DNA of 34,324 nt from a virus (taxonomy: Duplodnaviria; Caudoviricetes). The translations under genes and the position numbers were made by a program. Under the pieces are notes generated by a model. The model did no database searches and was not told the origin of the DNA. It saw only the letters and a list, made by a program, of their open reading frames with translations. Shown piece by piece: positions 1 to 16,440 of the stretch (position 1 is its first letter; every line of letters begins with the position of its first letter). The stretch lies in the IMG/VR virus record IMGVR_UViG_3300033067_000541, positions 1 to 34,324 of that record; one strand, written 5' to 3'.

Positions 1-504
1 CGCATGGACAAGCGCACCCGTGCTGCTTTGCCCGAGCAGCGCGGTTCCGGAAGTGGGGGGCAGAGGCAGTGACCGTTCGGTCGTATCGCTCCAGTAGCTC
101 TTGAGGCTGCGATCTGCGCGAGCCTTGAGTTCCTGAAGATACTCGCCCTGCTTGTCCAGGCGGTTCATCAGGGCGACAGCGCCAAAGGAACCGCCATTCG
201 ACAGGCTGAGGTCCTGATTGTAGCCCTGCACACGATCGGCAACGATGCGTTGCGATGATGTCAGGACTTCCTGACCCGATGTGAGAGTGAACGTCCGCGC
301 ATCCTGTGTGCCGCCAACCGTATAGTCCGTGTTCAGCGAGAGCGTGGTTCCGTCTTCATCCGTGGTGCTGTCATAGCGGACAAGCCTGATATGACTGGTC
401 GAGACAAAGCGGATGGCCTGCGATGTGCCATCGACAAGGCTGTATGGGCCCCTCGTGCCGTTGCCAGAAATAATGACTCTTGGGACTTGGGTTTCAAGGG
501 TCAT
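1..504 (-). CDS. Tail fibre/tailspike, T7 gp17-like N-terminal virion-attachment domain (3' end runs off the window)
   Basis: Not in the ORF track; translated by hand from ATG 504 (ATGA overlap with the HNH stop): MTLETQVPRVIISGNGTRGPYSL...LSLNTDYTVGG...DRVQGYNQDLSLSNGGSFGAVALMNRLDKQGEYLQEL. Open for 168 codons to the edge. The GNG, DYTV and LDK..LQEL pattern and the position after the ejection genes fit. Confidence 0.85.
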   Translation of the reverse strand, partial: MTLETQVPRVIISGNGTRGPYSLVDGTSQAIRFVSTSHIRLVRYDSTTDEDGTTLSLNTDYTVGGTQDARTFTLTSGQEVLTSSQRIVADRVQGYNQDLSLSNGGSFGAVALMNRLDKQGEYLQELKARADRSLKSYWSDTTERSLPLPPTSGTALLGQSSTGALVHA

Positions 505-1115
505 GCGCGAGCCCTGCTAAGCCGAGGAGTTTTGGGGATGATACCAGTGACGTGCGTCCAAGCGCCGCCCCTGCGGATATGACAAATGTGAGTTGGCGCC
601 ACACCATAACGTCTTGCCAAAATGCAGGGCCGCTCATTGCCGATGATAATTCCGACCACTTGTTCGGCAGTCAGCTTTGCGCTGTGATTTTTCTGCCCGA
701 CAATGGCCGTGCCTTGCGCGTGCTTGTCGAATTGATTTTCGACCGCAGTCGCCCATCGAACGTGGTTTGGGTTGACGCAGCCCTTCTTGCCGTTGTTGCA
801 AGAGTGAGCAGCGAGATACGCTGGAGATGGAGGTTCACCATGTGCGAGCCTGCACATTTGTCGGTGAGCGCTCGTATGCTGCCTTTTCCAGACTATTTTG
901 CCGTAACCGCCGGGGTTCAGAGGAAATGGCCAAAGCAGGCACTCGTCTGATTGATAATTTACGTGCTCAAGTAAAAACCTCTCATGCGCACCAGCCTTGG
1001 CCTTCGGTCGCGGGTTGAAGGCGCCGTGATACTCAGCTTGGTAATAGTGATTTTTGCACCACCCGCGCGCGTAGCGCGGCTGCTCGCACATCGCGATTGA
1101 ACAGATATCTGTCAT
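501..1115 (-). CDS. HNH homing endonuclease with N-terminal Cys/His zinc finger and C-terminal HTH
   Basis: CSIAMC...RGWCKNHY finger; ECLLWPF..GYG; AHRQMC..AHG; AAHSCNNGKKGCVNPNHVRWATAVENQFD core; AKLT...LARRYGV..THI HTH. Confidence 0.9.
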   Translation of the reverse strand: MTDICSIAMCEQPRYARGWCKNHYYQAEYHGAFNPRPKAKAGAHERFLLEHVNYQSDECLLWPFPLNPGGYGKIVWKRQHTSAHRQMCRLAHGEPPSPAYLAAHSCNNGKKGCVNPNHVRWATAVENQFDKHAQGTAIVGQKNHSAKLTAEQVVGIIIGNERPCILARRYGVAPTHICHIRRGGAWTHVTGIIPKTPRLSRARA

Positions 1116-1171: not shown

Positions 1172-4100
1172 TCAGTTCTTGGGAGGCGGTCCGAAGAAGA
1201 TCGCAGCGGGGTTGTCAGTCTCGCCGTTCCACAGCGCCATCGCTCCACGAACGGTCGCGTCAAGCTGGGCCGCGGGATAGTGGAAGATCATGCCAGCCGT
1301 CCTGTTCGCAGGCCGCCAGAAGCTTTCATCCAAGTCGAGTTCAGCTAGAGCCTTTGCCGCGTTGGTGCCTTCAGCGAAGATGCCAAGGCCGGCAGGACCG
1401 CGGTAGCTGAAGGCGTCATCGCCTCGCGCAGCGCCAGCTATCTGCGAAAGGCCGACGAACTGGCTCATCAGGAAGGAGACCTGCTCCCGCGCATACTTCT
1501 CCCAGTAGTCGTCATCGTCATCACCACCGCCCTTGGTCCACGCATCAAGCGCCATCTTGCCGGCCACTGGAACGGCAAGCAGGAGGACGAGATCAAGGCT
1601 AAGAGCCGCTACACCCAGCGCCGTTTTGGTGTTCCTGACACGCTGAACGGACAGGTTATACGTCGTGATCATATAGCTCATGAAATTGGTCAGGAGCCGC
1701 AGGGCTGCTGAATAGCGCGTCCCTGCCCCTGTTTGGATCGCTGCCGTCTGGTGGATCTCGCCGCCGCCCTGAGCATCGATGACGGCTTGGTCCGCCTCAG
1801 CAATCGCATCGGCCTCGTTCATTCCGGCAGCGCTGGCCTTGAAGTACCCCGCATACCAGGTCGGGACGTCGACGCTGTAGAACTGAATGTTGGACATCAG
1901 CCAGAACAGATTGTCGGTAACCCAGCGGGGCGTTACGCCCTTGCGCATCGAGGAGCGAAGGGCTGAAAGTTCCGGGCTTTGCGATTGCCTGCGGTTCTTC
2001 ATGAAGTCGGATTTCTCGGTCGCCCACGAAGCCCGGCGCCTGATGGTCAGGGCATCGGTGCCCATGGCGGCATAGCCCTTGGCGACCCAGTAACCGCCGA
2101 CACGGACCACTGAGTTGGTCACACCGAGAGGCTGGAGGGCCGCTGTCGCCACTTTCCAGCCAAGGCCCACAACCGTAGCCCCGTTGCGCAGATGGTTCAG
2201 GACGCCACTTGCGCCTTCAAGACCGAACTTGGCCGTGACTACCGTGTTGATGATCGTGTTGTAGATTTGCCGGCCATGACGCTGGACAATGGCATCCTCA
2301 ACGACTTTCTGCTTGAGAAGCCGGCCAGCGTCGAAGAAAGCTTCTTCCGTCGCAATCGACGTGGCGACCTGATCCAGATGCTTCGAGACCACGTCAATGA
2401 CGGATAGCCGCAATGGAAGCGTGACCCTGCCCTCGACGCGCTTCTTGCCAAAGCCCGGTTGCGTGCGATTGCCGACCTTCGGAACCGCGCCCTTGGTCTC
2501 TGCCTCGACTGCACGCTGCCCCGCCTTCGAGGAAAGCTCAGGGTCGAACATGATCGGGTAGTATCCGCCCTTGTACCCGCCGAACTTCGTGGCGATCGGA
2601 ATAGGGGCAACCTTATCCATTGGAACGCCGTGGACGGATTCGTGCACCTTGTTCGCTTCGGGGAACCAGGTGTCGAGATAGTCCCAGACGCTTTGAACGA
2701 AGTCCCAATCCTTCTTCGTCAGCGTGTCCAGCACCGATGCGATGCCTGCTTCATCCCAGCCTGTCGAGTCCATGAGACGGGCGCGGTTCTTCTCGTTGCC
2801 CCAGTTGAGCGCAACCGCCAGCCTGCCCTGCTTCGTCAGGCTCACTCCGAGCTGGGCGAAATGGATGCGCTCCTTGAAGAACCTGCCCCGCTCGGCTTTC
2901 GAATAGACGCCGAACAGCTTGTCCAGATCCTTGCCCATCTGCTTCCGAAGGACGGCGAGACGGGCGAACGCGTCATTCAGCGGCCGAACGATGTAGTTCC
3001 AGAACTGCCCACCATCCTTGCCGCCCGCGAACTGGCGAGCGAGGGATTGCAAGGTCCGGTGCATCGCGAAGTATTTGAGGACGCCACGCTTTGTCTTGGC
3101 CGCGAATGTATCGGATTCCACAGGCTCGCGCGGTTTCCGGTTCGGCTGGTTCGTCTCGATCTCCGCCGCGATATCCTCAGCCGCAAGCGACAGCCGGCGG
3201 CGCTCGCCTTCCTTGATCAGCTTATCCTTGAGGGTGGCAAGCCTCCAGATCATGTCCGCTTCATCGCGGACGCCCATCAGCTCGTCGACAGTCAGTGATT
3301 TGTAGTTCCGGGCGTCGACGCCTTCAGCCAGATCAACCAGCGTCCGTGACTTCTCGATTGCCGCCTGTGCCTCAGCCATTTGCTCGGTCGGGGACTTGGT
3401 TGCATCGTTGTAGGCCGCGAACGGATCAATGCCCGCCATCTGCCCCTGCAGCCATGCCGCTCGAGCAGCCCGCTTGTTCTCGCCCTTCTTCGTCTCATTG
3501 CGGAACTGGTAATCGGTGAGCAGACCATTCATCTGCTCGGCATAGTCCTTGCCGGCATGGAACAGGCGCTGCTGCTTGGTCTTGGAGCCGTAGTCTAGGA
3601 GATGCTTGCGGGCGCTCTCGATCTTGTCTGCGAGCTTCCGGCCTTCAGTGTACATGTGGGAGTTGATCAGGCGGTAACGGGCATACTCCGCAGCCTTTGC
3701 GAAGTCGCCTTTCTCCGCAGCCTCGATGGCTTTCTTTGACCAGCGGCGTTCGAGGACGAGCCACTGATTGAAGTTCAGGACTTCGCGGACCTGCTTTGAA
3801 CGAAGGTTCTCAATGGCCTGCTGCTTCGCGAGATTTGATGCGGCCTGCTGTCCCGTGGCCTTTGCCAATGCATCAAGCTCGATCTCGAACTGGCGCTGCT
3901 GGATCTCATTACGGGCATAGGCCGCTGCTTCCTGCTCCAGCGTTCCGTCCCGGAAGATGTCGCCATGCTTCGCGATCATGCGGCGCCGGGTTTCTTCGCG
4001 GATCAGCTGGTTACGCTTGGCGCCCTGATTGAGACCTTGGAGCAGCGCATTGCCGTCCGCCATCTTGAAGAACTCGGCCGCCTCATCCGGGCCGATGGCG

Positions 4101-7100
4101 TTTTCCTGTTGGCCTGAGAGGACGTTGGCGAGCTGGTCGCGGAGACCGAATAGCGGATCGCCTGTGATGTCGACGCCGTTCTCTTCGAACCAGGCTTCCC
4201 AGCGTTCGGCGGATTCCCGCTCTTGCACCGCTGGCATGTCATTGGCGGTATAGAGGACAGCCTGCCCATCAACATCGTTCCTGAGCGCATCCAGAAGCTC
4301 GGCAGGGGTTGGCGGGCTGGTGAAGTATCCTGCCTCGTAAGCTGCCTCGGCTGCGTGATCGAGCGTGTAGCTGCGGACCTTCTTGCCGTCCTTGGTCTCG
4401 TCTGCGATCAGGCCCGGCGCTGCCTTCTTCTCCCCGATGATCTTGAGGAGTTCGCCACCTTCATCCACGATGCCGCTATAAGCGATCTTGTCATTGCCGC
4501 TGCCGATCACCCTGCGTTGGGCAAGGAACTTCCACAGCGACTTCGGGCGCTTCTTCTTCAGCGTCTTGCGGACATCGACGGCGATCTCCACGAACTGGTC
4601 TAGGTCGGTCGCTGCTGCGCTGTAGGCGACGATCTCTGGCGGGAGGGAGGCTAGCGCCTCCTCGCCATATTGCTCCTTCACGGCCTGTAGGTTGAGCCGC
4701 ATGGGGGGAAGATTTGGGGGCGGTGCTGTGCGGCCTGTAGTGTTTGCCGCTTGCGCCAGAAGCTTGCTGCTTCCTGATTGAGAGGGGTCGAAGGAGGCAT
4801 CAGCATCGCGGATATTCTTGGGGTCAAAGATGACGACCTCATCTCCTGCTCGGACGCCATCATATCCGTTTCGCTTCAGCAGCTCCGAAAACTCATCGGC
4901 TCCAATGTTGCGCTGGATAGCGGCGGCGACAGTCAGCGGAAAGCGGACGCCATCTCGTTCCAGTTGCCGATATGCGAGATCTGCAACCGCGTCCTTTTCG
5001 CTTGGGTAGTAACGAGCGACTGCTGAATCTGCATCTGTCCAAACAGTTGCTACGCCATCAGCGTCAATCATTTCGTCGGGAATACTGTGGTTCATCCGGC
5101 GCGAATATGGGTCCATCCGCACTTGGATTTTTTCTACATTGACCTTTGCGACCGCGTCTTCCCACTGCTTGGAAAGCTCTTCGACCTGCCGAGGGAGCCC
5201 TTTCATCCCCTTTAAGGAACTCAAAAACTCCGGCACAATTTGCGTAACGAAGCCACCATCAGTTACTTCAAAAAGTTTTCCCTTGGCGTAAGCCTTTATA
5301 ACTCTAGCCGTAGGAGATGGTGCATCGGCCCCGGGCGCCCATTCTGCGAAATAGTTGGCCTCACCCGGGGAAGTAGAAAAGTACGTACCTTTTCCATAAT
5401 GACCAGTATCGTTGCGATGCCTCGGGCTAGCTGAAAACTCATCGAAGCTCTTGTCAGTCCCATGATACAGCGGCGTCTCTACATCAAACCCCTGCTCTCT
5501 CGCCCTCTGCATCCTTCCTGCTTCTGACATATCAAGAGAGGATTGCGACAGGCTTCCGCCATCCACATGCTTGATGAACGAATGCGGGAAGCCGCCCGGC
5601 ATCTGGGTATAGCCGTAGCGCCGGAACACATCCGGCAGGAATTCATTGAAGACGTTCTCGATATAGACTGCGTCGAGACCGTTATCCCGCGCCTCTTGCT
5701 CAAGACGCGCAACCAGTTCGCGGAAGTCTCCGGGCTTCTCATTCGGCGCCCTGCCGATTTCAAAGCTGGCGTTTTCAGAGTCCGTCCGCTGGATGCTTGC
5801 CAGATCGAGTGTCGTGACAAGCTCGCCCCTCTCGTCCACGCGGCGACCCTTGCGGAGATAGACCTCGTACTTGTCGACAAGGATGTGCGCGTTCTGCAGC
5901 GGCGTCGCCATGAACTGCCGGATCGCAGCAACGCCTGCATCGCTCAATTGGGAAAGCGACCCCTGCTCCTCGGCCTTGACCCGCTGAACGGCCTCGACAG
6001 GAACGCCCACAGCCCGCGCGATCTCACCCACGCGCATAGTTGCGAAGGCGTTCGGATGGCTGATCAGCCAGTCCTGCACCAGCGACATGCCGGCATCGAT
6101 TGCAGCGAGGCGCTTGGCCTGCTCTGGCGACACACGCTCCCGGAACATCCTGCGTGCTTGGTCGACGCCAATGGCGGATGACTGCGTTGCCGCCATGATC
6201 GCGGACAGCGACACATTGCGTGCAGCTTCGGGGTTGGTCTTGAAGTAATCCAGTACCCGCTGGATTTCAGCGGCGCGCTCAGTCGGTCCTACGCGTTGGG
6301 CGAGCTCAGAAGTTCCCTCGCCGCCGCCATTATCTTGACCGACAGCTTCTCCCGCGACCGGAGCGGCAGGTTCTTGATTGCCAGCAAGGGTCCGCGCAAG
6401 CCGTACTGAAGGATTTGCGCTCTCATCTCCTGATCGCTGCACCGCGCCAGCTGCGCGGAGTTCATCAAGGGTTGCCCAGGTGTGACGCTCATCGACGTTT
6501 TCCTGCGTGCCCGGGACCTCGGTTCCCGGCGGGTTCGCCCAGCGCCATTCTGCGGGCATCCGAGACCGCCACTCTACCTGGCGGGCCTGCCATTCTCCAT
6601 GATTGTGTAAATAGACGTTTAACGCTGCGTTGGTCTCCAGCGTCACTTCATCCATCGGCTCGAACAGGATGCTGCCTGATCCCTCTGCTGAGGCCAGCTC
6701 CAGAAGCTTGGCGTCCAGCTTGCGAAGCCGGGCGACCTCGGATTCGAACATCTTCGTGCCGCGATAGAACTCGACGCGGTTGCTGGCGCCACCTGATGCG
6801 AAACCGCCGAATGCCTGAATGGCGTGCTGGATTTCGTGCTGGATCGTCTCCATGAGCGTGTTTGATCCCGCCACGCTGCCGCGGGCGTTGATCAGGGGAA
6901 CGATGCGCGTTTCACCGCTCGGGAAGGTCACGGGTTGCGCGCCTTCGAACCGCCCGCTCTGCGCACCGGTGCTGGCCTTCAGGTACACAGTCCGCAGGAT
7001 CGGCATGGCCTCGAACAGCTCGGGCCACTCAATGAGCTGGTCCAGCCGGCCGCTTTGCGCCTTTGTCTCGGGGTTGAAATTGAACTGCGGCTTGCCTGGG

Positions 7101-10100
7101 ATTTCCCAGACCCAGTCGCCAAACTTGGTCTGCGCCCAGCCTGTCTCCCGCCAGATGTCCTCTTTGCTCTCCCCGCCGATATCCATCAGCGTGGCGCGCA
7201 TCAGCGAATGAAGCGGAGCACCGGCCGCGCTGCGTGGCGCGAACTGCGCAAGCTCTGGCGACGACAGCGTGTCCTGTGTTCCGGTCGTGGCGTACCAGTC
7301 GATACCCTGCATCCCGGCCAGACCCTTGCGCGGGTCGTAGATGCCGTGCTGAAGCTTCAGATCACCAAGGCCCATGATCTCCCGGGCGAGGTCGTGGCTG
7401 TAGCCGGCGGCTGATCCCTGAAAGGCAATGATCCGTCCATTTGGCGCCTTGAAAAGCATGATCACCGGATCGACACCGTCCGCGCGCATCCGCTCCTGCA
7501 GGCGCTTCAGGTTCTCATCGTTGGCGTCAGGCTCGTAATACCGCGAGAAGGCCAGCGCCTCGTCGTACTGTTCGAGGCTCGCCATGGCATCTGCCATGTT
7601 GGCGGCTTCCTCGACCAGCCCTTCCCGTGTCGCCCGCCAGCCCTTGCCAGAGAGCCATGCATAGGCGCGCTGTTCGGGTCGCTCGTCGATCTCGGATTGC
7701 ACTTCGCGGCGGGTTTGGCGCTCCTCATCGCGCCACCAGGCCTTCTGGTTGCGCTCGTAATCTTCCATCAGCCGGGCCATGAGTTCGGCCTCTGCGCGCT
7801 CCTTTGCGGCCAGCAGGCGTTCCCGGGTCTTCTCGACTTGGCGTTCGGTGATGACGCCTTTCTCCAGCAGGGCCTTTGCCATGGCCTCGGCATCGCGGGT
7901 CATGGTCGATGTCTGCGCCTTGATCGCCTCGTCCGTCGCCAGCATCCGGTCGAAGACCTGCCGGATTTCATCGTTCAGCTTCACGCGGGAGCCGATCGAC
8001 GTGACGCTCTTGTAGATGCGGAGGAGCCATGCCTTGAAGCTGGCGAACACGCTGCGGAGGGCCGATGTCGGAGCCTTGCCCTCGCGGAGGTAGGCTTCGA
8101 AGCTCTCAGCAAAGGCCTCCTGGATATCCCGGCCTTCCTGTGTGAAGTTCCCCTGATCGTCGAACATCGCGGTCCAGTTCGGGGACTTGCCCTGCCATTC
8201 GAGGATGGCGGCGATCTGCTCCATGACGAACGGGTGAACCATGTCCTGTGGGTTCAGGATCGCGGACATTTCCTCAGCGGTGAGGACGCTGCCTTCCCTG
8301 ACCGTCATCGTCGGGGCGGTCGTCTGCGCCGGGATGTTCGCCATGCGCCAGAGGGTGTCGAGATACCAGTGCGCGGCTTCGTGAACCAGCGTCGACAGGT
8401 TCGAGCTTTCGAACAGGCGGATCGTTGAACGGCCCATGGCGCGCGGGGTGAATGAACCGCGCTTCTCTTGGGCGAGGCTCAGTTCCTGGCGCCGCGCCTC
8501 GACCGCCTTCCAGTTATTGTTGGACGCGACTCGGGCCTTCTTCGTCCTCTCTTTCACAGATAGATGCGGGAAAAGCTGCCGTCCGATCTCCGCGTTATCT
8601 AGCCCGCGCGCTTTGAGATCGATGATCTTCTGCGTCTCGGCAGATAGCGCCGGTCCAGTCCTAAGCTTCTGGACTTCAAAGCCTTTTTCACGAACGCGCG
8701 AAAGAATGCGCGCAACGTCCTTGGGCTCCATTAGATGATCACCATCGCGGTTGGCGTTCAGGCGATCCGTGACCTCGTCATTGCTGCCGCCCTTGATGGC
8801 TTCCTTCCAGACTTCAAACTCATGCGGAGGAAGCTTCTCGGACGCTGCCAGCACGGTTTCATCATCGACCTGAATGGCCTGGCGCTGGAGACCCTGATCA
8901 AGCGAGCCGGCGTCTTCCTGCCCCGTCAGGCTGGTGACGATGTCGAAGCCCTGCTCCTTCCACAGCGCTTCCGGGTCCTGCCCTGTACGCTCGGCCAGCG
9001 TCGTCACCATCTCCCCGATGATGGACGCCTGCGTATTGGCGGCCTCGGTATTGAAGATGCCCAGCCCTGCGACCTGTTCCCGGATCACCTCGCGGACACG
9101 GTCGGCGCTATCGGCAAAGGCCTGGTCTACATTGCCAGCCTCAACTTGCGCCTTCTGCTCGGCCTCGAAGACCGATTTCATGGCCTCGCGTTCCTTGACC
9201 GTGAAATCATCGGCACGCAGGCGCATGTTCGGGGAAAGGGCTCCATGGATCGTCTCGCCGGAAACTCCGATCTCCTTCTTCGCGGTCTTCAGTGCGGCGG
9301 CATAATTCCCCGCCGGGATCACGACATCTTCGCCGGACGCGATCGAGGCGTTCATGTCCGCGGGGTCAATGCGGAAGGCCTGCGCCAGCTGGTCTGTGGT
9401 CACATTGGCCGACTGCGCCAGTTCGGTGAACGCTTCAGGGGCCACCCTGACGCTTTCCAGCGGTCCGTCCTTGGTGACAGCTGCGACAGCCTCGCGGTAC
9501 TTGTCAGGCAGCCGGTTCAGCAGTTTGGAGTCGGCAGCACCCTGCGCCATGGCATCGAACGTGGCTGAAAGCTGGTCCGTGCGCTTCTGTTGCGCCTGTT
9601 CAGAAATCCGGTTGAAAGCCACGTCAGCCGCCTTGCCGGCCGCCATCTGGCCTTCCGTGCCTACCAGCGTGGCGACAAATGTTTGCATGGCCGCTGATGG
9701 ACGGTCGTTGAGATACTGCTCCCAAGTCCCCTCGGGCTTCAGCGTCAGCCATTCATCCAGGTCTTGCAGCGCCGTTGCCGCCTGCTCGCCAAGATGTTCG
9801 GCAAGGCGGGACTTGACGCCCTCCGTGATCATCGACTTCACGGTGCCCTTGAGGATGCCCTCGACGATCATCGAGGTCGGAACGACTTCAGTCAGGAACT
9901 CGATGCCGCCCTCGCGCAGGGCAAAGCCGACGCGGGCCGCAACCGACAGGTCAGGACGCTCGTCCGTCGCCCGGCTGTAGGCTTCGCCTGCCGTCAGGCT
10001 CGACATGCCAGCCATGGCGATTTCGGGATTGCCGGTGACAACTGACGCCGCGATCAGCGGGACGTTCTGAGTCAGGCTCTCGATGCCGGAATAGTATCCA

Positions 10101-11131
10101 CTCTCGAAATCGTTGCGACCCTTTGGCCTTATGGCAATCTTGACGTCCTTGGCCGCTTTGCGGGCGGTTTCCAGCGCCGAACCGACCTGCGACAGGGGAG
10201 CATTCGGGTCCTTGGGCTTGTCGCCTTGCTGGGTCAGTTTGCGTAGGTCTTCCCCGCGCTGGCCCATCTGAACGGCGATGAACGGTGATGGCTTCGAGCG
10301 GAACCATTCATCGGTAAGGTCAGTAACGCCCTGCCCAAATCCGGCGAGACTTTCACCAATCCCTACAGTTCCGGAAGCAATGGCGCCCGGCGTGTTGTAG
10401 AGCATGGAGCCGATCGATTCCCACCAGCTCAGGTTCTGGAGGTCATCGTGTGAGACTTCGAGATTTTCCCTCGCCTGATCCAGCCATGTCCGCAGCTTCG
10501 GAGCCGACGAGGTCAGCGCATCTATGTTCTTCGCGGTCTTGGCGAACTCATAGGACTGGCGATTGGCCGAGACTTCACCACGGTTGACGCCAAGCTCTCG
10601 CGCCGTCTCGATATCCCTTGCCGCATCATCCGGCGTTCCGGGTTGTTGGGCCAGCGCAGAGCGAACGCCTGCTGCGGCCCGATCGTCACGCTGTTGCTTC
10701 AGGTCGATGATCGTCGCTTCGCTCAGCGGGCCATTCTCAGGACCGCCCGTGCCGTTGATCGCAAAGCCCTGATCGGGTTGCGGATCGCCTTCCAGATCGC
10801 GCGCCGTGAGCGCGGGCGATGGTCCAAGCGAAGAATACTGCCTATCCTGCTCGAAGCGATTGAACAGCGGATCGCCTTCCTGCGGGACAAACGCCTGAGT
10901 TGGCGTAGACGGCCTCTCAAGATCGGGCGTGTCATAGCCGCCCTTGCGCATGTAGTCGGGACGCTTCAGCGGGCCGGGAGGCAGGGGTTCGTCAGGTCCG
11001 AGCTGGACCATGGGCGTGTCGCGCAGGCGCTTGAACTTGGCGTCCGATTCCTCGCGATACCGACGCGCTTCATCTTCGGCGTTGATCTCGCTGACCACAC
11101 GCCTGACGCCGTCCGGAATGGTGAAGGTCAT
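1172..11131 (-). CDS. Giant internal virion/DNA-ejection protein (T7 gp16 position), polyvalent: LPD22-like, HTH pairs, two HEXXH metallopeptidases, LPD23-like, GNAT, ADP-ribosyltransferase
   Basis: 3324-aa ORF in the track; likely start ATG 11131 (ATGA overlap with the upstream stop). Motifs: STLVHEAAHWYL, IWRETGW..GDWVWEI, IQHEIQHAIQ, VYIENVFNEFLPDVFRRYGY, LYHGT..GTYFST..GYDGV..EVVIFDPKNIR. Last of three ejection genes before the fibre. Confidence 0.88.
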   Translation of the reverse strand: MTFTIPDGVRRVVSEINAEDEARRYREESDAKFKRLRDTPMVQLGPDEPLPPGPLKRPDYMRKGGYDTPDLERPSTPTQAFVPQEGDPLFNRFEQDRQYSSLGPSPALTARDLEGDPQPDQGFAINGTGGPENGPLSEATIIDLKQQRDDRAAAGVRSALAQQPGTPDDAARDIETARELGVNRGEVSANRQSYEFAKTAKNIDALTSSAPKLRTWLDQARENLEVSHDDLQNLSWWESIGSMLYNTPGAIASGTVGIGESLAGFGQGVTDLTDEWFRSKPSPFIAVQMGQRGEDLRKLTQQGDKPKDPNAPLSQVGSALETARKAAKDVKIAIRPKGRNDFESGYYSGIESLTQNVPLIAASVVTGNPEIAMAGMSSLTAGEAYSRATDERPDLSVAARVGFALREGGIEFLTEVVPTSMIVEGILKGTVKSMITEGVKSRLAEHLGEQAATALQDLDEWLTLKPEGTWEQYLNDRPSAAMQTFVATLVGTEGQMAAGKAADVAFNRISEQAQQKRTDQLSATFDAMAQGAADSKLLNRLPDKYREAVAAVTKDGPLESVRVAPEAFTELAQSANVTTDQLAQAFRIDPADMNASIASGEDVVIPAGNYAAALKTAKKEIGVSGETIHGALSPNMRLRADDFTVKEREAMKSVFEAEQKAQVEAGNVDQAFADSADRVREVIREQVAGLGIFNTEAANTQASIIGEMVTTLAERTGQDPEALWKEQGFDIVTSLTGQEDAGSLDQGLQRQAIQVDDETVLAASEKLPPHEFEVWKEAIKGGSNDEVTDRLNANRDGDHLMEPKDVARILSRVREKGFEVQKLRTGPALSAETQKIIDLKARGLDNAEIGRQLFPHLSVKERTKKARVASNNNWKAVEARRQELSLAQEKRGSFTPRAMGRSTIRLFESSNLSTLVHEAAHWYLDTLWRMANIPAQTTAPTMTVREGSVLTAEEMSAILNPQDMVHPFVMEQIAAILEWQGKSPNWTAMFDDQGNFTQEGRDIQEAFAESFEAYLREGKAPTSALRSVFASFKAWLLRIYKSVTSIGSRVKLNDEIRQVFDRMLATDEAIKAQTSTMTRDAEAMAKALLEKGVITERQVEKTRERLLAAKERAEAELMARLMEDYERNQKAWWRDEERQTRREVQSEIDERPEQRAYAWLSGKGWRATREGLVEEAANMADAMASLEQYDEALAFSRYYEPDANDENLKRLQERMRADGVDPVIMLFKAPNGRIIAFQGSAAGYSHDLAREIMGLGDLKLQHGIYDPRKGLAGMQGIDWYATTGTQDTLSSPELAQFAPRSAAGAPLHSLMRATLMDIGGESKEDIWRETGWAQTKFGDWVWEIPGKPQFNFNPETKAQSGRLDQLIEWPELFEAMPILRTVYLKASTGAQSGRFEGAQPVTFPSGETRIVPLINARGSVAGSNTLMETIQHEIQHAIQAFGGFASGGASNRVEFYRGTKMFESEVARLRKLDAKLLELASAEGSGSILFEPMDEVTLETNAALNVYLHNHGEWQARQVEWRSRMPAEWRWANPPGTEVPGTQENVDERHTWATLDELRAAGAVQRSGDESANPSVRLARTLAGNQEPAAPVAGEAVGQDNGGGEGTSELAQRVGPTERAAEIQRVLDYFKTNPEAARNVSLSAIMAATQSSAIGVDQARRMFRERVSPEQAKRLAAIDAGMSLVQDWLISHPNAFATMRVGEIARAVGVPVEAVQRVKAEEQGSLSQLSDAGVAAIRQFMATPLQNAHILVDKYEVYLRKGRRVDERGELVTTLDLASIQRTDSENASFEIGRAPNEKPGDFRELVARLEQEARDNGLDAVYIENVFNEFLPDVFRRYGYTQMPGGFPHSFIKHVDGGSLSQSSLDMSEAGRMQRAREQGFDVETPLYHGTDKSFDEFSASPRHRNDTGHYGKGTYFSTSPGEANYFAEWAPGADAPSPTARVIKAYAKGKLFEVTDGGFVTQIVPEFLSSLKGMKGLPRQVEELSKQWEDAVAKVNVEKIQVRMDPYSRRMNHSIPDEMIDADGVATVWTDADSAVARYYPSEKDAVADLAYRQLERDGVRFPLTVAAAIQRNIGADEFSELLKRNGYDGVRAGDEVVIFDPKNIRDADASFDPSQSGSSKLLAQAANTTGRTAPPPNLPPMRLNLQAVKEQYGEEALASLPPEIVAYSAAATDLDQFVEIAVDVRKTLKKKRPKSLWKFLAQRRVIGSGNDKIAYSGIVDEGGELLKIIGEKKAAPGLIADETKDGKKVRSYTLDHAAEAAYEAGYFTSPPTPAELLDALRNDVDGQAVLYTANDMPAVQERESAERWEAWFEENGVDITGDPLFGLRDQLANVLSGQQENAIGPDEAAEFFKMADGNALLQGLNQGAKRNQLIREETRRRMIAKHGDIFRDGTLEQEAAAYARNEIQQRQFEIELDALAKATGQQAASNLAKQQAIENLRSKQVREVLNFNQWLVLERRWSKKAIEAAEKGDFAKAAEYARYRLINSHMYTEGRKLADKIESARKHLLDYGSKTKQQRLFHAGKDYAEQMNGLLTDYQFRNETKKGENKRAARAAWLQGQMAGIDPFAAYNDATKSPTEQMAEAQAAIEKSRTLVDLAEGVDARNYKSLTVDELMGVRDEADMIWRLATLKDKLIKEGERRRLSLAAEDIAAEIETNQPNRKPREPVESDTFAAKTKRGVLKYFAMHRTLQSLARQFAGGKDGGQFWNYIVRPLNDAFARLAVLRKQMGKDLDKLFGVYSKAERGRFFKERIHFAQLGVSLTKQGRLAVALNWGNEKNRARLMDSTGWDEAGIASVLDTLTKKDWDFVQSVWDYLDTWFPEANKVHESVHGVPMDKVAPIPIATKFGGYKGGYYPIMFDPELSSKAGQRAVEAETKGAVPKVGNRTQPGFGKKRVEGRVTLPLRLSVIDVVSKHLDQVATSIATEEAFFDAGRLLKQKVVEDAIVQRHGRQIYNTIINTVVTAKFGLEGASGVLNHLRNGATVVGLGWKVATAALQPLGVTNSVVRVGGYWVAKGYAAMGTDALTIRRRASWATEKSDFMKNRRQSQSPELSALRSSMRKGVTPRWVTDNLFWLMSNIQFYSVDVPTWYAGYFKASAAGMNEADAIAEADQAVIDAQGGGEIHQTAAIQTGAGTRYSAALRLLTNFMSYMITTYNLSVQRVRNTKTALGVAALSLDLVLLLAVPVAGKMALDAWTKGGGDDDDDYWEKYAREQVSFLMSQFVGLSQIAGAARGDDAFSYRGPAGLGIFAEGTNAAKALAELDLDESFWRPANRTAGMIFHYPAAQLDATVRGAMALWNGETDNPAAIFFGPPPKN
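4760..5542 (-). other. ADP-ribosyltransferase module (ART-PolyVal type, H-Y-E clade) inside the giant protein
   Basis: TPLYHGTDKSFDEF...HYGKGTYFSTSPGEANYFA...VIKAY...GYDGV..GDEVVIFDPKNIR; DNA visibly more A/T-rich than its flanks. Confidence 0.8.
5552..5947 (-). other. GNAT-like acetyltransferase module inside the giant protein
   Basis: LDLASIQ...PGDFRELVARLEQEARDNGLDAVYIENVFNEFLPDVFRRYGY matches the GNAT strand-helix-strand layout with N and the F..RYGY ending. Confidence 0.6.
6305..7243 (-). other. LPD23-like domain plus zincin metallopeptidase (HEIQH at 6824-6838) inside the giant protein
   Basis: EDIWRETGWAQTKFGDWVWEIP...LDQLIEWPELFEAMPIL...TIQHEIQHAIQAFGGFASGG...YLHNHGEWQARQVEWR. Confidence 0.75.
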
Positions 11132-12744
11132 TGGCTCGCCACCCACTGGTCATAGGCGGCGCGCGCTTCACCTGGAGACGGAGGGCGGCCATACTGCTGC
11201 TGGAAAGCGCCAAACGCTTCCTTGTAGGCCTGATTGTCGATGTGACTCGAATTGGCGAAGTCGTAGGCGTAGGTTTCCCACTGGACGACAGGCAGGTTCT
11301 TGCCGTCCTTCATGCGGCCAACAGCAAGGGCCGCCGCGCTTCTGATCTGCTCCGGGGACAGCTTTGCTCCACCCGTTTCAGGCGCCATCTCCGCCGCGGC
11401 CTGACGCAGATAACCGCCAAGCTCAATAGCCTCGCGCGTCTTGTCCTTGCGATCCGAACCGACTTGCCATTTCGGGGGCGCAATGCGCTTGGCCTCGTCG
11501 ATAAGCTGGCCCTCGATGCGGTCCACTTCGTTCACGGTCTTTCCGGTCTCGCGCATTTCATAGCGTTTCTTGTTCAGCTCGCGCTGATCGTCCGGCGTCA
11601 TATGCTTGTAGAGTTCATAGAGCTGCGGATCCCACTGGGTTTCCGGGTCCAGCATGAACTGCGCAGGCGTCATGGTTGAAGAGGACTGCAGCGAGTACAT
11701 CGCCTGTTGGCTCCAGCTCTTCCATTCGTTCTTCTGCGCCTCGGTCAGCTTGTCTTCGGCGTTCGCTTCCGCTTTTCGGCGGTCCTGCTCCGCCCGGATG
11801 GAACGCCACAGCGCAGGCTGGTCATTCAGGGCGATCTCGCCTTTGTCGACGGCGGACTGGAGGTCCTTGAAGCTGTAGCCGTCCGTGAGGATGCCCATCT
11901 CGAACGAATTGGCGGCCTTGATCTCGGCCTTGCGCTTTTCCGCATCAAGCCGGTTCTGCTCGGCTCGCATATCCTGCTGGGTCGCTTCCCTTGCCTGCTT
12001 CAGCGCTTTCTGTTCCTCGGCATTGCCGTTGAACTCCGCGATGATGGTCTCGGCGCCTGCATCATCGCCCGCCATGGTCAGCTTCTCGACGCTGTCACGG
12101 GTGCGGATCAGGCTGTCCTTCTGAAGCCAGGTATCCAGTTCGGCATTCATCCTGGCGGCATCGTCCTTGCCCAGAACGCCGTCCTTCACATGACGATCGT
12201 TGAGGCCCTTCTGCGCTGCGATGTTGGCTGCAACGGTTTCGCGCGAGAGGGACAGGTCCCCGACCTGCTTGGCCATTGCAGCGTTATCGCTGATGATGTT
12301 GGCCTTGGCGCCTTCCAGCTGGCGCTGCCGCATGAGATTGCGGGTCTGAAACGTACCTTCCAGCTGCCAGTCTCTGGCCCGCTGGGTCCAGAGTTCACGG
12401 GCTGACTGCGGGACAAGCTTGGCATTGTCCGCAATGATCTTTGTCGCGGCATGTTCATACCGCTGCTCAAATTCGGTTGGATCATCCCCGCTGTCGGCAA
12501 GGCCGCGGTATGCACGGTCCAGTTCCTCGCGCGTCTTCTGGCTCGCATTGACCGCGTCACGGTCGATCTGCGCCTGCCGCAACTTCTGGCCGAACTCGAA
12601 CAGTTTCGAGCCAACCTCCACCTGCGCGCGGCCAGCAGCCATCTCTCCCGACGTATCGGGAACAGGCACACTGACGACGCCACGCGTCTGCTGCGCCTGA
12701 CCGCTCTGAAGGCCAAGCTCCTGCGCTCTTGGAATGCGAGCCAT
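11128..12744 (-). CDS. Internal virion/ejection protein (T7 gp15 position)
   Basis: 538 aa, alpha-helical and charged, MARIP start; lies between the gp14-like and gp16-like genes. Confidence 0.7.
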   Translation of the reverse strand: MARIPRAQELGLQSGQAQQTRGVVSVPVPDTSGEMAAGRAQVEVGSKLFEFGQKLRQAQIDRDAVNASQKTREELDRAYRGLADSGDDPTEFEQRYEHAATKIIADNAKLVPQSARELWTQRARDWQLEGTFQTRNLMRQRQLEGAKANIISDNAAMAKQVGDLSLSRETVAANIAAQKGLNDRHVKDGVLGKDDAARMNAELDTWLQKDSLIRTRDSVEKLTMAGDDAGAETIIAEFNGNAEEQKALKQAREATQQDMRAEQNRLDAEKRKAEIKAANSFEMGILTDGYSFKDLQSAVDKGEIALNDQPALWRSIRAEQDRRKAEANAEDKLTEAQKNEWKSWSQQAMYSLQSSSTMTPAQFMLDPETQWDPQLYELYKHMTPDDQRELNKKRYEMRETGKTVNEVDRIEGQLIDEAKRIAPPKWQVGSDRKDKTREAIELGGYLRQAAAEMAPETGGAKLSPEQIRSAAALAVGRMKDGKNLPVVQWETYAYDFANSSHIDNQAYKEAFGAFQQQYGRPPSPGEARAAYDQWVASQ

Positions 12745-13248
12745 TTATCCGCCGAAGACTTTCGACCAATCCGCATCGATCATGTCGCCAATCCCACTGA
12801 GGAGCGTTGCGCGACCTGCCGCCCTGTAACCCTTCGCCTGCGCCTCTGCCGAACGCTTGGAGGAAATCCCGGTATAGCGGGAGACCTTCGCCGCGTAGCG
12901 GTCCTGCCTTGCCCGATCCTCCGCCTCAGCCATCGTCAGCATGGATTCCAGCCCTGCTTCGCGGATCGTTTCATCGGTGATCGCCTGGACACTGACATCG
13001 GTCGTATCACCGCCGCCGGCCGCAGCCCTTGCACGCTGTGTCGCGATAATGCTTTCCGCGCGCTTCTTGATGAGGTCCGCATTGTAGGAGCCGACAGCCA
13101 CGCCCTGCTTCGCGCGGGTCTCGAGCTGCTTGGCTTCGGCCTCGCCCGCCAGCATGGCGCGCTGACCAGCTTCCTCGGCGGCTGCAGCCTGGGCCTTATA
13201 GCCCTTGCGCTGCTCGTTCGCCCCGAGACCCTTGAAGATGAAGCTCAC
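12745..13248 (-). CDS. Small internal virion/ejection protein (T7 gp14 position)
   Basis: 167 aa, Ala/Gly-rich helical; QRARAAAGGGD and AAGRATLLSGIG segments typical of podophage gp14-like proteins. Confidence 0.75.
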   Translation of the reverse strand: MSFIFKGLGANEQRKGYKAQAAAAEEAGQRAMLAGEAEAKQLETRAKQGVAVGSYNADLIKKRAESIIATQRARAAAGGGDTTDVSVQAITDETIREAGLESMLTMAEAEDRARQDRYAAKVSRYTGISSKRSAEAQAKGYRAAGRATLLSGIGDMIDADWSKVFGG

Positions 13249-13594
13249 GCCGCCATACCTTTTTTGCCTCGTCGACGGGCCTGAACCCTAGACGTTCAAG
13301 CCAGACATCAGCTCTCGGAATCTCGTAATTGCAGTCGGCCCAGACCTCCGGAACGCCTGCCCTGTCCAGCGCCCACAACAGCTTCAGCGCCTCAGCGTGA
13401 ACCTTGTGCGGGCATCCCTCACGCTGATCGAAGTTCCCCCACCAGCGGTCCTGATCGTCGATCCAGACCAGCCCGATCGCCACCAGCCGCTCATCACGCC
13501 TGACAGCAAAGCCCATGATGCGGGAGGGATGCGGAAAGTCTTCAACACCCCATTCCTGGAAATGGCCGGCATTGAGGTCTTCGTACCGGATCAC
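13196..13594 (-). CDS. GNAT-fold tail assembly protein (T7 gp13-like position)
   Basis: 132 aa, GTGA overlap with the nozzle stop; LVAIGLVW and ADVWLERLGFRP motifs; position between nozzle and ejection genes. Confidence 0.65.
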   Translation of the reverse strand: MIRYEDLNAGHFQEWGVEDFPHPSRIMGFAVRRDERLVAIGLVWIDDQDRWWGNFDQREGCPHKVHAEALKLLWALDRAGVPEVWADCNYEIPRADVWLERLGFRPVDEAKKVWRRELHLQGSRGERAAQGL

Positions 13595-15891
13595 CCCGTC
13601 TTCTCGTTGGTTTCCATGTGCGGGACCATGCCCAGAACCGTCGCAGGCCCTGCGCTCGGCATTGACAGGCAGACACGCGGGTCCTTGGACGAATTGCCAT
13701 TGAAGGGCTGGTTGATATCGTCGGTTACCGGAACCATTGGGCTATCGTAAGTCTCCGGATTAGGACCCTTCAGCGTCTCCATCGTCGTGAAGTCGCGGCC
13801 CCATTTCAGGGCTCCCGGCGGCGTCCGGTAAGGCAGGAGGCCAATGCGCTTGATCTGCCTGTCCTGCGTCAGGGCTGATCCGACATTTGTCCCGCCCAGA
13901 ACCCGCGCCGACTTGTACCTGCCCTCGTAGAGGATGCCGACAATGGCGTAGGTCGTCGCCGTGGTCAGCGTGATGGCCCCGCTTGCCACCGTGAACGGTC
14001 CCTGCTGCTGGCCATTGGCCCATGCATAGACCGTCATCCCTTCAAGATGGCTCAGGCCCGTAATGCTGGTCGTCGATACCCCGTAATATTCAATCGCGGA
14101 GCGAAGGCGCCAGGCATCCTCCATATTCTCCCATGCTTCAGGAGCGAGTTTCTCGATATAGCGCACCGTCGAGCTATCAACCGTCCGCCTCACCGCGAAA
14201 TAAACACTGTCCTCGACATCCCCGGGCAGGCAGCAGACGCTCTCGTAATAAGCCCCGGTATCGACCAGCCTGCACCAGGCAACCACCCCCTCGGTCGGTT
14301 CAAACACCAGAACCGACATCCGCCCATCATCGCAGGGCAGCCAGATCCTCGGCTCCGGATTGTACTGGACTGCGCATTCCAGCGCGCCGTCCGTAGTGCC
14401 CTCGTTTCCGAATATCGTCCGGTGCAGCCGCGTCAGTTCGTTGAGTTCGTATTTTTCTCCAGTCAGCGCCATGCGGAACAGCTTGCGCCGGCTGCGATCG
14501 ACAAATGCGACATCCTCGTCAACGACCTGTGCCTGCGCATCCGCAGAGCCCCGCCTTGACCGCGGCCTTGCCTTGGCCGTGGTTGGCGTAATCACATCAT
14601 CCAGCGCATTGGTGCCGATCTCGGCTTCGCGCGCATCCATGCAGATCATAAGGCGGCCGACGCCGACCATGGACTGGACCGAACCCCAGCCGCCAGTCAC
14701 GCGGCGGGAGACCGCATCATCATCTTCGACGCCGATCGAGAAGGCTTCGAAGTCGTCCGATTCCGAGCCCCAGAACCTGTCATCCCGGCCACCCCACAGG
14801 CGGCCATCCGCCAATGCTACGGCGGATAGCCAGCCCGCCGCAGCCGACCATGCGCCAAACGCCCAGTCAGTTGTCGCTGTCGTCTTGCCTACCGGGCTCA
14901 GGATATCGACCGTGCAGGAATTGTCCGCCTCGACGCTATGGATACGGACTATGCCCGTCGTCACCCCATTAGCATGGGTGAGAGCGACCGTTGCCGTTCC
15001 TGACGTATAAGCCGTTGCGATGACCCGGTAATAGACAATCTGGTTATCCAGGTCGTCGTCATAAGTCGTCGAGGTCGTGCCGGTGTGGGTCTGGTACGTG
15101 ACCCAGTTGTATTCATTGCCGACGCTGCGCTGCAGGACCAGCGTTGCCGTGAACACCCCGGTGATATCCAGCGTAAACTTGCGATTGTCGCCTGTCCCGG
15201 TAACCCGGATTGTTTCCGAGGTTTCGCTCAGTGCATCGATAGAGGCCGTGATGTACTGGCCCTGATGCTGGACTTTGACCAGCGCCCCTTCATGCGTGGC
15301 CCGGAAGATCGGAGCCGACGCCGTGAGCGTTGCCTCGCCCGTATTGCTCGAGCATGTCAGGGTGGTGGTCGAGACGTTGAGGTTGGCGAACGGGCCATTC
15401 TCGGGTTGGAACTTCCGTAGGCTCCAGCTCTTGGCCCCGCGGCGCTCCAGAACCCGGGTCTGGATCGACTTCGTTGCAATCCACGCCACGTCAAAGCTCT
15501 GCTCCATGCGGAGCGAGCGCAGCAGGTTTTCCTGCCATGGCGTTTCCAGCGTGAGAGTTCCTGCCGTCAGGGCCTGGAAAGCAATGAGACTGGCCTTGCC
15601 CTCAGCTGCTCCGACATAGCCAATGTCTGGAAGCCGGAATTCGACATAGTAGGGCGAGACGCCCGGGGTAAACGTGATGACATGGACGCCCGGATAGAGC
15701 GTTATGTCCGTGAACAGTTCCTGCCCGCCAGCCGTTGTCCCGGCCCGCATCTTCAGCGGCCGGCGTTCGACCTCGAAAGAGAATGACACCTCATCTGTTG
15801 GCGCAGCAGTCGTGATCTGAGAGCGCGCAATGGCCTCATTTCCCGCTGTCGTGACAAACGCGACATCAGCCCCGGATACGGAAATGCCCAT
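13591..15891 (-). CDS. Tail tubular protein B / nozzle (T7 gp12, P22 gp10-like), C-terminal part
   Basis: 766 aa beta-rich; TPW..LL..LRMEQSFDV, WAFGAWS...W.SAV..ADGRLWGG, FWGSESDDFE, VVAWCR, VYFAVRR, VRYIEKL, GLSHLEG motifs. Confidence 0.85.
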   Translation of the reverse strand: MGISVSGADVAFVTTAGNEAIARSQITTAAPTDEVSFSFEVERRPLKMRAGTTAGGQELFTDITLYPGVHVITFTPGVSPYYVEFRLPDIGYVGAAEGKASLIAFQALTAGTLTLETPWQENLLRSLRMEQSFDVAWIATKSIQTRVLERRGAKSWSLRKFQPENGPFANLNVSTTTLTCSSNTGEATLTASAPIFRATHEGALVKVQHQGQYITASIDALSETSETIRVTGTGDNRKFTLDITGVFTATLVLQRSVGNEYNWVTYQTHTGTTSTTYDDDLDNQIVYYRVIATAYTSGTATVALTHANGVTTGIVRIHSVEADNSCTVDILSPVGKTTATTDWAFGAWSAAAGWLSAVALADGRLWGGRDDRFWGSESDDFEAFSIGVEDDDAVSRRVTGGWGSVQSMVGVGRLMICMDAREAEIGTNALDDVITPTTAKARPRSRRGSADAQAQVVDEDVAFVDRSRRKLFRMALTGEKYELNELTRLHRTIFGNEGTTDGALECAVQYNPEPRIWLPCDDGRMSVLVFEPTEGVVAWCRLVDTGAYYESVCCLPGDVEDSVYFAVRRTVDSSTVRYIEKLAPEAWENMEDAWRLRSAIEYYGVSTTSITGLSHLEGMTVYAWANGQQQGPFTVASGAITLTTATTYAIVGILYEGRYKSARVLGGTNVGSALTQDRQIKRIGLLPYRTPPGALKWGRDFTTMETLKGPNPETYDSPMVPVTDDINQPFNGNSSKDPRVCLSMPSAGPATVLGMVPHMETNEKTG

Positions 15892-15894
15892 GGA

Positions 15895-16440
15895 TCACGG
15901 CAGGATGAACTGCTGGCCGCCTTCGGTCGTGGCGATCCAGTCATAATCAATGTCGACGAAGAACGGATCACCGACGCCGCCAGAACCAGGCTCGATCGGA
16001 GCGCCGCCGCCCGATGAAGGAGGCGCGGACTGGTCAGACCATGCCCCGATAGTCGCCGCTGCTCCATCAATCGTCAGGTATTCCTCCGTCGTATTGTCGA
16101 TGAAGCGGATCTGGTTGGCGGAGAACTCAAGCACGTAGGCGATTTCGCCTGACCTGACGAAAGGCCTGACAATCGCGATACTCTCGCCCTCGGTCGTGAT
16201 CTCTGCGCCGGCTTCATCAAGGACGGAATCGCCATCTTCTTCGGTGACAACGGCGAGGGCTGTCACGTCATTGAGGAATTTCGAGCCGGGAACCTTGGAC
16301 ATCTTCCCCTGCGTGTAGGGAAAGGCATTCTCGAAAGTCTCGGCAAGGCGGGAATAGATATCGAGATCGACCCGCGCCAGCGTCTCCTTGTCGCCCTCGC
16401 CGCCGTTGAAGGCAACGATCGTGGGATTGGTCTTACCCAT
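15895..16440 (-). CDS. Tail tubular protein B / nozzle, N-terminal part (in frame with 13591-15891, separated by TGA-TCC)
   Basis: MGKTNPTIVAFNGGE...LARVDLDIY...ENAFPYTQGKM..VPGSKF...VRPFV...AYVLEF..NQIRF is the canonical nozzle N-terminus. Confidence 0.8.
   Translation of the reverse strand: MGKTNPTIVAFNGGEGDKETLARVDLDIYSRLAETFENAFPYTQGKMSKVPGSKFLNDVTALAVVTEEDGDSVLDEAGAEITTEGESIAIVRPFVRSGEIAYVLEFSANQIRFIDNTTEEYLTIDGAAATIGAWSDQSAPPSSGGGAPIEPGSGGVGDPFFVDIDYDWIATTEGGQQFILP

What the first reader, a model, noticed from the sequence alone, without database searches (positions are those of the whole stretch)
4751..8902. Ejection protein built as a cassette array: every cargo module is bounded by an [S/E/L]-L-x-Q motif
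Seen: eight similar motifs fall exactly at the domain borders recognisable by eye: GSLDQ-G (8894-8902), LSLAQ-E (8468-8476), ASLEQ-Y (7568-7576), PELAQ-F (7244-7252), SELAQ-R (6296-6304), GSLSQ-L (5948-5956), GSLSQ-S (5543-5551) and KLLAQ-A (4751-4759). They delimit, in order, an HTH pair, the HEAAH peptidase/core block, an unknown ~105-aa domain, LPD23+HEIQH peptidase, a second HTH pair, a GNAT and an ART. The DNA encoding the motif is not conserved (CTTGATCAG, CTCGCCCAA, CTTTCCCAA, CTGTCGCAA), so the constraint appears to be on the protein. Known: phage polyvalent proteins combine such domains and are thought to be proteolytically processed. Inference: this is a virion-injected polyprotein in which a peptidase (best candidate the core RGSF...STLVHEAAH zincin) cuts after L-x-Q to release separate host-takeover or anti-defence effectors, and new cargo is accepted when it arrives with the motif.
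Basis: partly seen in the sequence, partly recalled or inferred. Interest (0 to 1): 0.88.

Follow-up and report, generated by a model that had tools for sequence, protein, structure and literature searches.

The report
Glutamine-tagged cargo cassettes in phage injector
A giant protein that this short-tailed phage likely injects with its DNA is a fixed scaffold carrying swappable modules, and nearly every joint between modules carries the same Leu-x-Gln tag across many relatives, which is probably where the protein's own zinc protease cuts the cargo free, although no cut has been measured.

Summary
Observation confirmed. All eight L-x-Q motifs lie in a 3324-aa gp16/IVP-D-like protein of the Bordetella BPP-1 Bbp10 family. 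In a motif-blind test, 486 of 1755 alignment ends among 39 close homologues fall within 5 aa of L-x-Q (shifted null 5.6%), the best of 400 X-x-Y patterns; distant relatives use [YFL]-x-Q. Modules change order and partners at these joints. All Leu and Gln codons occur, so the constraint is on the protein. The core HExxH is present in 120 of 120 homologues, with a tag just upstream in 103 of 106 scored; a cargo HExxH such as HEIQH is absent in 29 of 39. Best reading (0.6): the core zincin likely cuts at or beside the tag after ejection. Cleavage, cutter and scissile bond are untested; three L-x-Q inside modules are not joints; N4 vRNAP carries HExxH yet stays intact. Polyvalent proteins and proposed autoprocessing are known; eight literature searches found no tag. 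This scan reported like tag codes, with other motifs, in other viruses.

The parts
1172..11146 (-). 3324-aa gp16/IVP-D-like polyvalent ejection protein (P0001; probable start is Met6 at 11131)
   Evidence: ORF; PHROG 9880 E 2e-253; core matches BPP-1 Bbp10 and kin; last of the gp14-gp15-gp16 slot
8894..11146 (-). Conserved N-terminal scaffold, with LPD22 at 10406-10642
   Evidence: Pfam LPD22 E 2e-13; coverage by homologues
8921..9034 (-). Conserved helix-helix-strand-like segment just before cargo bay 1; possibly the first half of the core zincin (not shown)
   Evidence: profile test gave the expected register but probability 1.2%, not above controls
8894..8902 (-). Tag 1 (LDQ, aa 749-751), opens cargo bay 1
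   Evidence: 34/36
8468..8893 (-). Cargo: tandem HTH-like module, 142 aa
   Evidence: GerE E 0.004, weak; one or two copies or other cargo in homologues
8468..8476 (-). Tag 2 (LAQ, aa 891-893), closes bay 1 directly before the RGSF strand of the peptidase
   Evidence: 29/35
7568..8467 (-). Core zincin-like peptidase (HEAAH at 8369-8383, third-ligand candidate Glu1010 at 8117-8119) plus long helices; part of the scaffold, not cargo
   Evidence: HExxH in 120/120; H, E, H and E117 invariant in 31 rows; weak fold hits to zincins
7568..7576 (-). Tag 3 (LEQ, aa 1191-1193), opens cargo bay 2
   Evidence: 27/28
7244..7567 (-). Cargo: 108-aa module of no known family
   Evidence: no Pfam or PHROG hit; 23 hits among 1.84 billion representatives, all in proteins of 383 aa or more
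7244..7252 (-). Tag 4 (LAQ, aa 1299-1301)
   Evidence: 13/21
6296..7243 (-). Cargo: LPD23 plus second HExxH peptidase-like domain (HEIQH at 6824-6838), 316 aa
   Evidence: Pfam LPD23 E 5e-11; tag at its N-border in 9/9
6296..6304 (-). Tag 5 (LAQ, aa 1615-1617)
   Evidence: 8/8
5948..6295 (-). Cargo: second HTH-like pair, 116 aa
   Evidence: HTH_6 E 0.004, weak
5948..5956 (-). Tag 6 (LSQ, aa 1731-1733)
   Evidence: 6/6
5543..5947 (-). Cargo: possible GNAT-like module, 135 aa; recently exchanged with the phage in L030
   Evidence: 93.7% nucleotide identity against 67-78% elsewhere; GNAT label weak
5543..5551 (-). Tag 7 (LSQ, aa 1866-1868)
   Evidence: 11/13
4751..5542 (-). Cargo: ART-PolyVal ADP-ribosyltransferase-like module with a variable interior, 264 aa
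   Evidence: Pfam E 2e-8; sits in bay 1 in P0027, P0009, P0034
4751..4759 (-). Tag 8 (LAQ, aa 2130-2132), closes bay 2
   Evidence: 38/38: 29 Gln, 9 His
1172..4750 (-). Conserved C-terminal scaffold, 1192 aa, with no L-x-Q excess
   Evidence: PHROG 9880; 182 observed against 183.5 expected in the close set
11128..13248 (-). gp15-like (11128-12744) and gp14-like (12745-13248) internal virion genes, context for the ejection role
   Evidence: T7_gp14 E 9e-4, PHROG 418 E 3e-7; gp15 by position and size only

Best explanation
The protein is a conserved scaffold with two variable cargo bays whose modules are joined by a [L/F/Y/M]-x-[Q/H] tag; it is likely packed in the head and ejected like T7 gp16, and its own core HExxH zincin likely cuts at or beside each tag to free the modules. 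Shown: the tag at joints, module shuffling, protein-level constraint, universal intact HExxH. Inferred: the chain is threaded out unfolded, the zincin folds after ejection (about 65% after ejection, 35% in the head) and releases pieces of about 142, 108, 316, 116, 135 and 264 aa as separate DNA-binding or modifying effectors; the bond cut is after Gln (about 55%), before the hydrophobic residue (about 30%) or elsewhere in the tag; L-x-Q inside folded modules is protected. Cassettes probably move by ordinary recombination, partly using the tag's codons as microhomology, and selection keeps recombinants that retain a tag on both sides.
For: Tag at alignment breaks far above chance; same module in different bays and neighbours, tagged each time; identity between partners switches within about 5 residues of the tag; at the last joint 38 of 38 carry it behind at least seven unrelated-looking upstream ends, the only change being Gln to His; all six Leu and both Gln codons among 86 distinct joints; P0089 has an empty bay 1 with a single LDQ; core HExxH in 120 of 120, tag 19-41 aa upstream in 103 of 106 against 36% by chance; model shows strands, HExxH helix and Glu helix, with several zincins among weak fold hits; no tag excess in scaffold or capsid protein; five cultured phages carry the tag before the peptidase; Iyer 2017 proposes autoproteolytic release by such domains; N4 vRNAP, which stays intact, has no such tag in the linker windows checked.
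Against: No cleavage has been measured in any family member that I could find. N4 vRNAP has an HExxH domain and is intact. Fold hits are weak (Z 3.3-4.5, none above unrelated rows; Foldseek none at E 0.001). 68 of 110 dereplicated breakpoints are not at L-x-Q. L-x-Q is also in excess in the N-terminal scaffold (177 against 94.6), where no modules swap, and portal has 6 against 2.3. P0036-P0038 lack the tag before the peptidase. Gln at P1 with small P1' is more typical of 3C-like cysteine proteases than of zincins (own knowledge). Homologues were fetched with a query that contains the peptidase, which favours its presence.
Confidence: 0.6

Rival explanations
1. The tag is a docking or threading signal that is bound but not cut: a repeated peptide recognised by the scaffold, portal or a chaperone so that beads-on-a-string cargo is packed or ejected in order; the HExxH domain does something else.
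For: Explains the protein-level constraint equally well; N4 vRNAP keeps an HExxH domain and stays whole; L-x-Q excess in the N-terminal scaffold.
Against: One tag per joint, on both sides of every module and right before the peptidase, is the layout of a polyprotein; strict Gln/His in exposed variable linkers; catalytic residues invariant.
Confidence: 0.2
2. The tags are cut, but by a host protease or a separate phage protease rather than the core domain.
For: The 320-aa gene at 19022-19984 hits PHROG 458 'protease' (E 2e-12); portal has 6 L-x-Q against 2.3 expected.
Against: That gene's nearest named look-alike is the T7 capsid assembly (scaffold) family; scaffold and capsid protein show no tag excess; the tag persists in phages of Caulobacter, Bordetella, Pseudomonas, Xanthomonas and Cobetia, and its Leu versus aromatic preference follows the peptidase tree (10 changes against 26.6 shuffled; kinship alone can give this).
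Confidence: 0.12
3. The tag is the translation of a DNA recombination site (for example a CA dinucleotide) used by a site-specific recombinase, and has no role in the protein.
For: Gln and His codons share CA; a 94%-identical cassette ends at the tag; CAA is over-represented at joints (29 of 86 against 494 of 2716).
Against: Third codon positions are free; TTA and TTG occur; A-ending codons are raised generally near joints (36% against 28%); Gln far outnumbers His (137 against 10 after [SAEG]L[AS]); no listed repeat family coincides with the tags; distant relatives use Tyr or Phe codons.
Confidence: 0.05
4. The cargo HEIQH peptidase is the cutter.
For: It has an HExxH motif and a contiguous strand-helix layout.
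Against: 29 of 39 close homologues have tagged arrays but no cargo HExxH (27 rows, plus 2 mis-anchored rows whose listed motif is the core).
Confidence: 0.03

Closest known systems
Phage polyvalent proteins with zincin-like MPTase (Iyer et al. 2017, PMC5512222; passages and section 8 read, supplements not seen)
   Same: Giant multi-domain protein with LPD22, LPD23, ART-PolyVal and HExxH domains; the paper proposes autoproteolytic release in the head or after injection.
   Different: The passages read name no cleavage motif ('linker' occurs 0 times in the main text) and no tag-bounded exchange; here a specific tag and two cargo bays are mapped.
Bordetella phage BPP-1 Bbp10 and IVP-D homologues of the epsilon15 subgroup (Hardies et al., PMC4819975; passages and Table 2)
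   Same: Same slot after gp14/gp15-like genes; core peptidase region 33% identical to Bbp10; Bbp10 has FYQ before the RG strand.
   Different: Bbp10 is 2053 aa with a short bay 1 and no long bay 2; no peptidase or processing of it is described in the passages seen.
Coliphage N4 virion RNA polymerase gp50 (PMC13434306; passages)
   Same: Ejected giant protein with cargo beside an HExxH domain, linked as beads on a string.
   Different: Intact when purified; no [LFYM]-x-[QH] in aa 930-1040 or 2060-2220; no significant match to this family's core profile.
Viral polyproteins cut at Gln by 3C/3CL/NIa proteases (recalled, not tested)
   Same: Hydrophobic-x-Gln followed mostly by a small or polar residue, His tolerated in place of Gln.
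   Different: Those are cysteine proteases of RNA viruses; the candidate here is a metallopeptidase and the modules are exchangeable.

Membership tests
Phage polyvalent proteins (Iyer 2017) | Several unrelated conflict domains in one chain, architecture varying between relatives | tested here: met
   LPD22, LPD23, ART-PolyVal; PBECR5 and other cargo in homologues
Phage polyvalent proteins (Iyer 2017) | Encoded among virion genes of a phage | tested here: met
   terminase, portal, capsid, tail and internal virion genes upstream
Bbp10 / IVP-D-like ejection proteins | Sequence kinship and gp16 position | tested here: met
   PHROG 9880; tblastn to Bbp10 E 1e-18; position after gp14-like gene
Bbp10 / IVP-D-like ejection proteins | Present in the virion and ejected into the host | not testable with these tools
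   inferred from position and from PMC4819975 Table 2
Zincin-like MPTase | HExxH helix plus a conserved Glu on a later helix | tested here: met
   H29 E30 H33 and E117 invariant in 31 rows; both on helices in the model
Zincin-like MPTase | Three-stranded sheet with an N-terminal helix | tested here: inconclusive
   model of aa 894-1075 has two strands; weak hits to lethal factor Z 4.5 rmsd 4.9 over 96, 3dl1 Z 4.1 rmsd 4.2 over 96, ArdC Z 3.9 rmsd 3.4 over 88, PPEP-2 Z 3.4 rmsd 4.4 over 88; missing part may lie before bay 1 (inconclusive)
Zincin-like MPTase | Zinc binding and proteolytic activity | not testable with these tools
   needs biochemistry
Self-processing polyprotein | Conserved recognition motif at domain borders | tested here: met
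Self-processing polyprotein | Observed cleavage at the motif by an encoded protease | not testable with these tools
   no proteomic data for a family member found in 8 paper searches; Carin-1 paper not held
Head-maturation protease systems (T4 gp21, phiKZ gp175 type; recalled) | Motif shared by scaffold and capsid precursor | tested here: not met
   scaffold 1 against 0.6, capsid protein 2 against 0.9 expected
Integron-like DNA cassette arrays | Conserved DNA recombination site at joints | tested here: not met
   free third positions in 86 joints; no listed repeat at the tags

The most novel reading that the evidence does not exclude
A phage ejection protein works as a self-unloading delivery chassis with a protein-level cassette code: one cargo bay is inserted inside a loop of the zincin itself, so the protease assembles across its own cargo only after ejection and then cuts every hydrophobic-x-Gln tag, while phages trade effector cassettes using the tag's codons as crossover points.
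Probability: 0.3. Interest if true: 0.85.

Novelty: new variant of a known kind. Interest (0 to 1): 0.7.

Why it matters
Autoprocessing of polyvalent proteins by their zincin domain has been a proposal since 2017 without named sites. The tag gives exact predicted cut points in a large family (1142 hits at E 1e-10) that includes cultured phages, so one proteomics run and two point mutants can settle it. It also gives a rule for cutting these giants into their effector modules, many of no known family, and, if true, shows how a podophage delivers a changeable kit of proteins with its DNA.

Tried and rejected
Split-zincin profile test: right register but probability 1.2%, E 0.043, with controls at E 0.017 and 0.032: not shown. 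Foldseek on both models found nothing at E 0.001; the first VIA search was filled by long helices. Sequence searches of PDB with the core profile and with the empty-bay homologue P0089 found no peptidase. NCBIfam gave only weak HTH hits. ESM Atlas for the 108-aa module: best score 0.82, a lead at most. No free-standing relative of the GNAT-like module among proteins of 74-237 aa; this is no evidence that none exists. No RNA holder listed. My regex missed the core motif in 14 of 120 proteins; the printed regions show HExxH in all 14. The careful tree did not finish; the quick tree was used, 114 rows. Eight paper searches found no report of the tag; PMC13730344, PMC8954989 and bioRxiv 2026.02.16.706137 (passages, section 15) held nothing on processing; the online alignments of Iyer 2017 were not seen and may show the motif. 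Rejected: frameshift or misassembly of the window (run X1 contigs bridge all eight tags with no differences, though X1 may be the source sample); DNA site model; HEIQH as cutter; head-maturation protease.
Full report
Setting. The window is most of a podophage genome: terminases, portal, scaffold, capsid protein (17994-18848), tail tubular proteins, gp14-like and gp15-like genes, then a 3324-aa ORF at 1172-11146 on the minus strand. The giant matches PHROG 9880 and, over its core, BPP-1 Bbp10 and the giants of phages AF, Carin-1, Jess A and CP2. Hardies et al. list Bbp10 as a T7 IVP-D (gp16) homologue (PMC4819975, Table 2). The closest locus in a named genome is a Hyphomonadaceae MAG (L030), which hints at an alphaproteobacterial host. 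Contigs of run X1 bridge all eight motifs with no differences (X1 may be the source sample).

The observation. All eight triplets are present and in frame. I tested the claim blind to the motif, using the best 120 of 1142 homologues. Among 39 close proteins, 486 of 1755 internal alignment ends lie within 5 aa of an L-x-Q Gln (27.7% against 5.6%), the strongest of 400 X-x-Y patterns. Among 81 distant proteins the top pattern is Y-x-Q (232 against 25.5), with L-x-Q at 168 against 61. With ends clustered, 97 of 140 scaffold-edge breaks and 67 of 172 cargo-zone breaks are near L-x-Q (nulls 7.9 and 13.5), but only 1 of 20 inside the core; after dereplication 42 of 110 (null 8.5). Spacing controls LQ, L-x-x-Q and Q-x-L show no excess, L-x-Q 1.87-fold.

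Anatomy. The family has a fixed scaffold (N-terminal part to aa 751, peptidase block 894-1193, C-terminal part from 2133) and two cargo bays. The span from the N-scaffold end to the HExxH runs from 60 to 1869 aa in the 109 of 120 proteins that could be anchored; P0089 has an empty bay with one LDQ. Modules move: the ART sits in bay 1 in P0027, P0009 and P0034 and in bay 2 here, tagged at both ends in most cases (N-border 10 of 13, C-border 13 of 15; 17% by chance). At the last joint 38 of 38 anchored proteins have hydrophobic-x-Gln (29) or -His (9) behind at least seven unrelated-looking upstream ends. Where two proteins share one side of a tag only, identity switches within about 5 residues of it. 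L030 shares the GNAT-like cassette at 93.7% nucleotide identity against 67-78% elsewhere; the right end is the tag, the left end is about 20 codons inside the module. L007 and run X2 differ from the window inside the ART module, so exchange is not confined to tags.

Protein or DNA. Among 86 distinct joints from 20 genes all six Leu codons and both Gln codons occur and third positions are free. CAA is raised (29 of 86 against 494 of 2716 elsewhere) but so are A-ending Glu, Lys and Gln codons near joints generally (36% against 28%). None of the 20 direct-repeat families listed coincides with the tags. The constraint is on the protein; the codons can still act as microhomology.

Who would cut. 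The core HExxH is in 120 of 120 homologues (106 by regex, 14 read from the printout), with a hydrophobic-x-Gln 19-41 residues upstream in 103 of 106 (36% by chance). A downstream Glu is invariant in 31 aligned loci. A cargo HExxH is absent from 29 of 39 close proteins. Scaffold and capsid protein show no excess of the tag, and the gene labelled 'protease' looks like a T7-type scaffold. The AlphaFold model of aa 894-1075 (pLDDT 80, pTM 0.74) has two strands, the HExxH helix and the Glu helix; zincins appear among weak fold hits (Z 3.3-4.5) but not above unrelated rows. The fold described by Iyer needs a further helix and strand. A conserved segment just before bay 1 may supply them, which would put bay 1 inside the protease; a profile test placed it in the expected register but not above controls, so this stays a hypothesis. 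The tag's Leu-versus-aromatic preference clusters on the peptidase tree, which kinship alone can explain.

Mechanism. Most likely (0.6) the protein is packed whole, threaded out like T7 gp16, and its zincin then cuts the exposed tags and frees the cargo. Packing, ejection, cutting, timing and cargo function are all inferred. The bond is open: conserved Gln/His followed mostly by S, T, E, G or A (218 of 314 joints) suggests a cut after Gln, while zincins usually read a hydrophobic residue just after the cut (own knowledge), which would put it before Leu. Against cleavage: N4 vRNAP has an HExxH domain and is intact, though its linker windows lack the tag; the N-terminal scaffold also has excess L-x-Q (177 against 94.6); P0036-P0038 lack the tag before the peptidase. 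A bound-but-uncut docking tag is the main rival (0.2).

Known and new. Polyvalent proteins and possible autoproteolysis by MPTase domains are described (PMC5512222, passages and section 8; supplements not seen). Eight searches found no paper naming this tag or tag-bounded exchange in ejection proteins. Earlier notes of this scan describe like codes with other motifs in other viruses and one member of this family, whose listed summary does not mention the tag; none with a glutamine site in this family was returned. These notes are unchecked and did not change my tests. Verdict: real, family-wide, a new variant of a known kind, directly testable in cultured phages; interest 0.7.

Noticed in passing
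window 13591-15891 and 15895-16440 (minus): The tail tubular protein B (nozzle) gene is split into 181-aa and 766-aa ORFs matching successive parts of PHROG 376; a stop at the same place occurs in L007, L013, L014, L015, L019, L020, L022 and L040, so the split is natural.
   Followed up: partly
L007:13554-16285: L007 is 98.9% identical to the window up to aa 1895, has another ART interior, rejoins for 48 nt, then leaves at the Leu codon of tag 8 into an unrelated 890-aa in-frame tail with weak GNAT and a peptidoglycan-binding hit: an assembly chimera or an ART cassette shared with another protein family.
   Followed up: partly
L008 and L030, upstream of the giant gene: These phages have a giant gene close to the window's but a tail tubular protein B only about 30% identical, and a gp15-like gene similar only in its second half: mosaic exchange upstream.
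   Followed up: no
window 2630-2644 (minus; aa 2835-2839): A third HExxH-like string (HESVH) in the C-terminal scaffold, present in 32 of 39 close proteins; not tested as a metal site.
   Followed up: no
window 9380-9421 (minus; aa 576-589): Two L-A-Q in the N-terminal scaffold, the first kept in 36 of 37 homologues; may be structural or further cut sites.
   Followed up: no
window 19022-19984 (minus): Gene labelled 'protease' by PHROG 458 resembles T7-type scaffolding proteins; the label may be wrong.
   Followed up: partly
window 501-1115 and 25732-26370 (minus): Two HNH homing-endonuclease-like genes, one right after the giant gene and one upstream of the small terminase.
   Followed up: no
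window 29739-30302 (minus): NusG-like antiterminator gene upstream of the structural operon.
   Followed up: no
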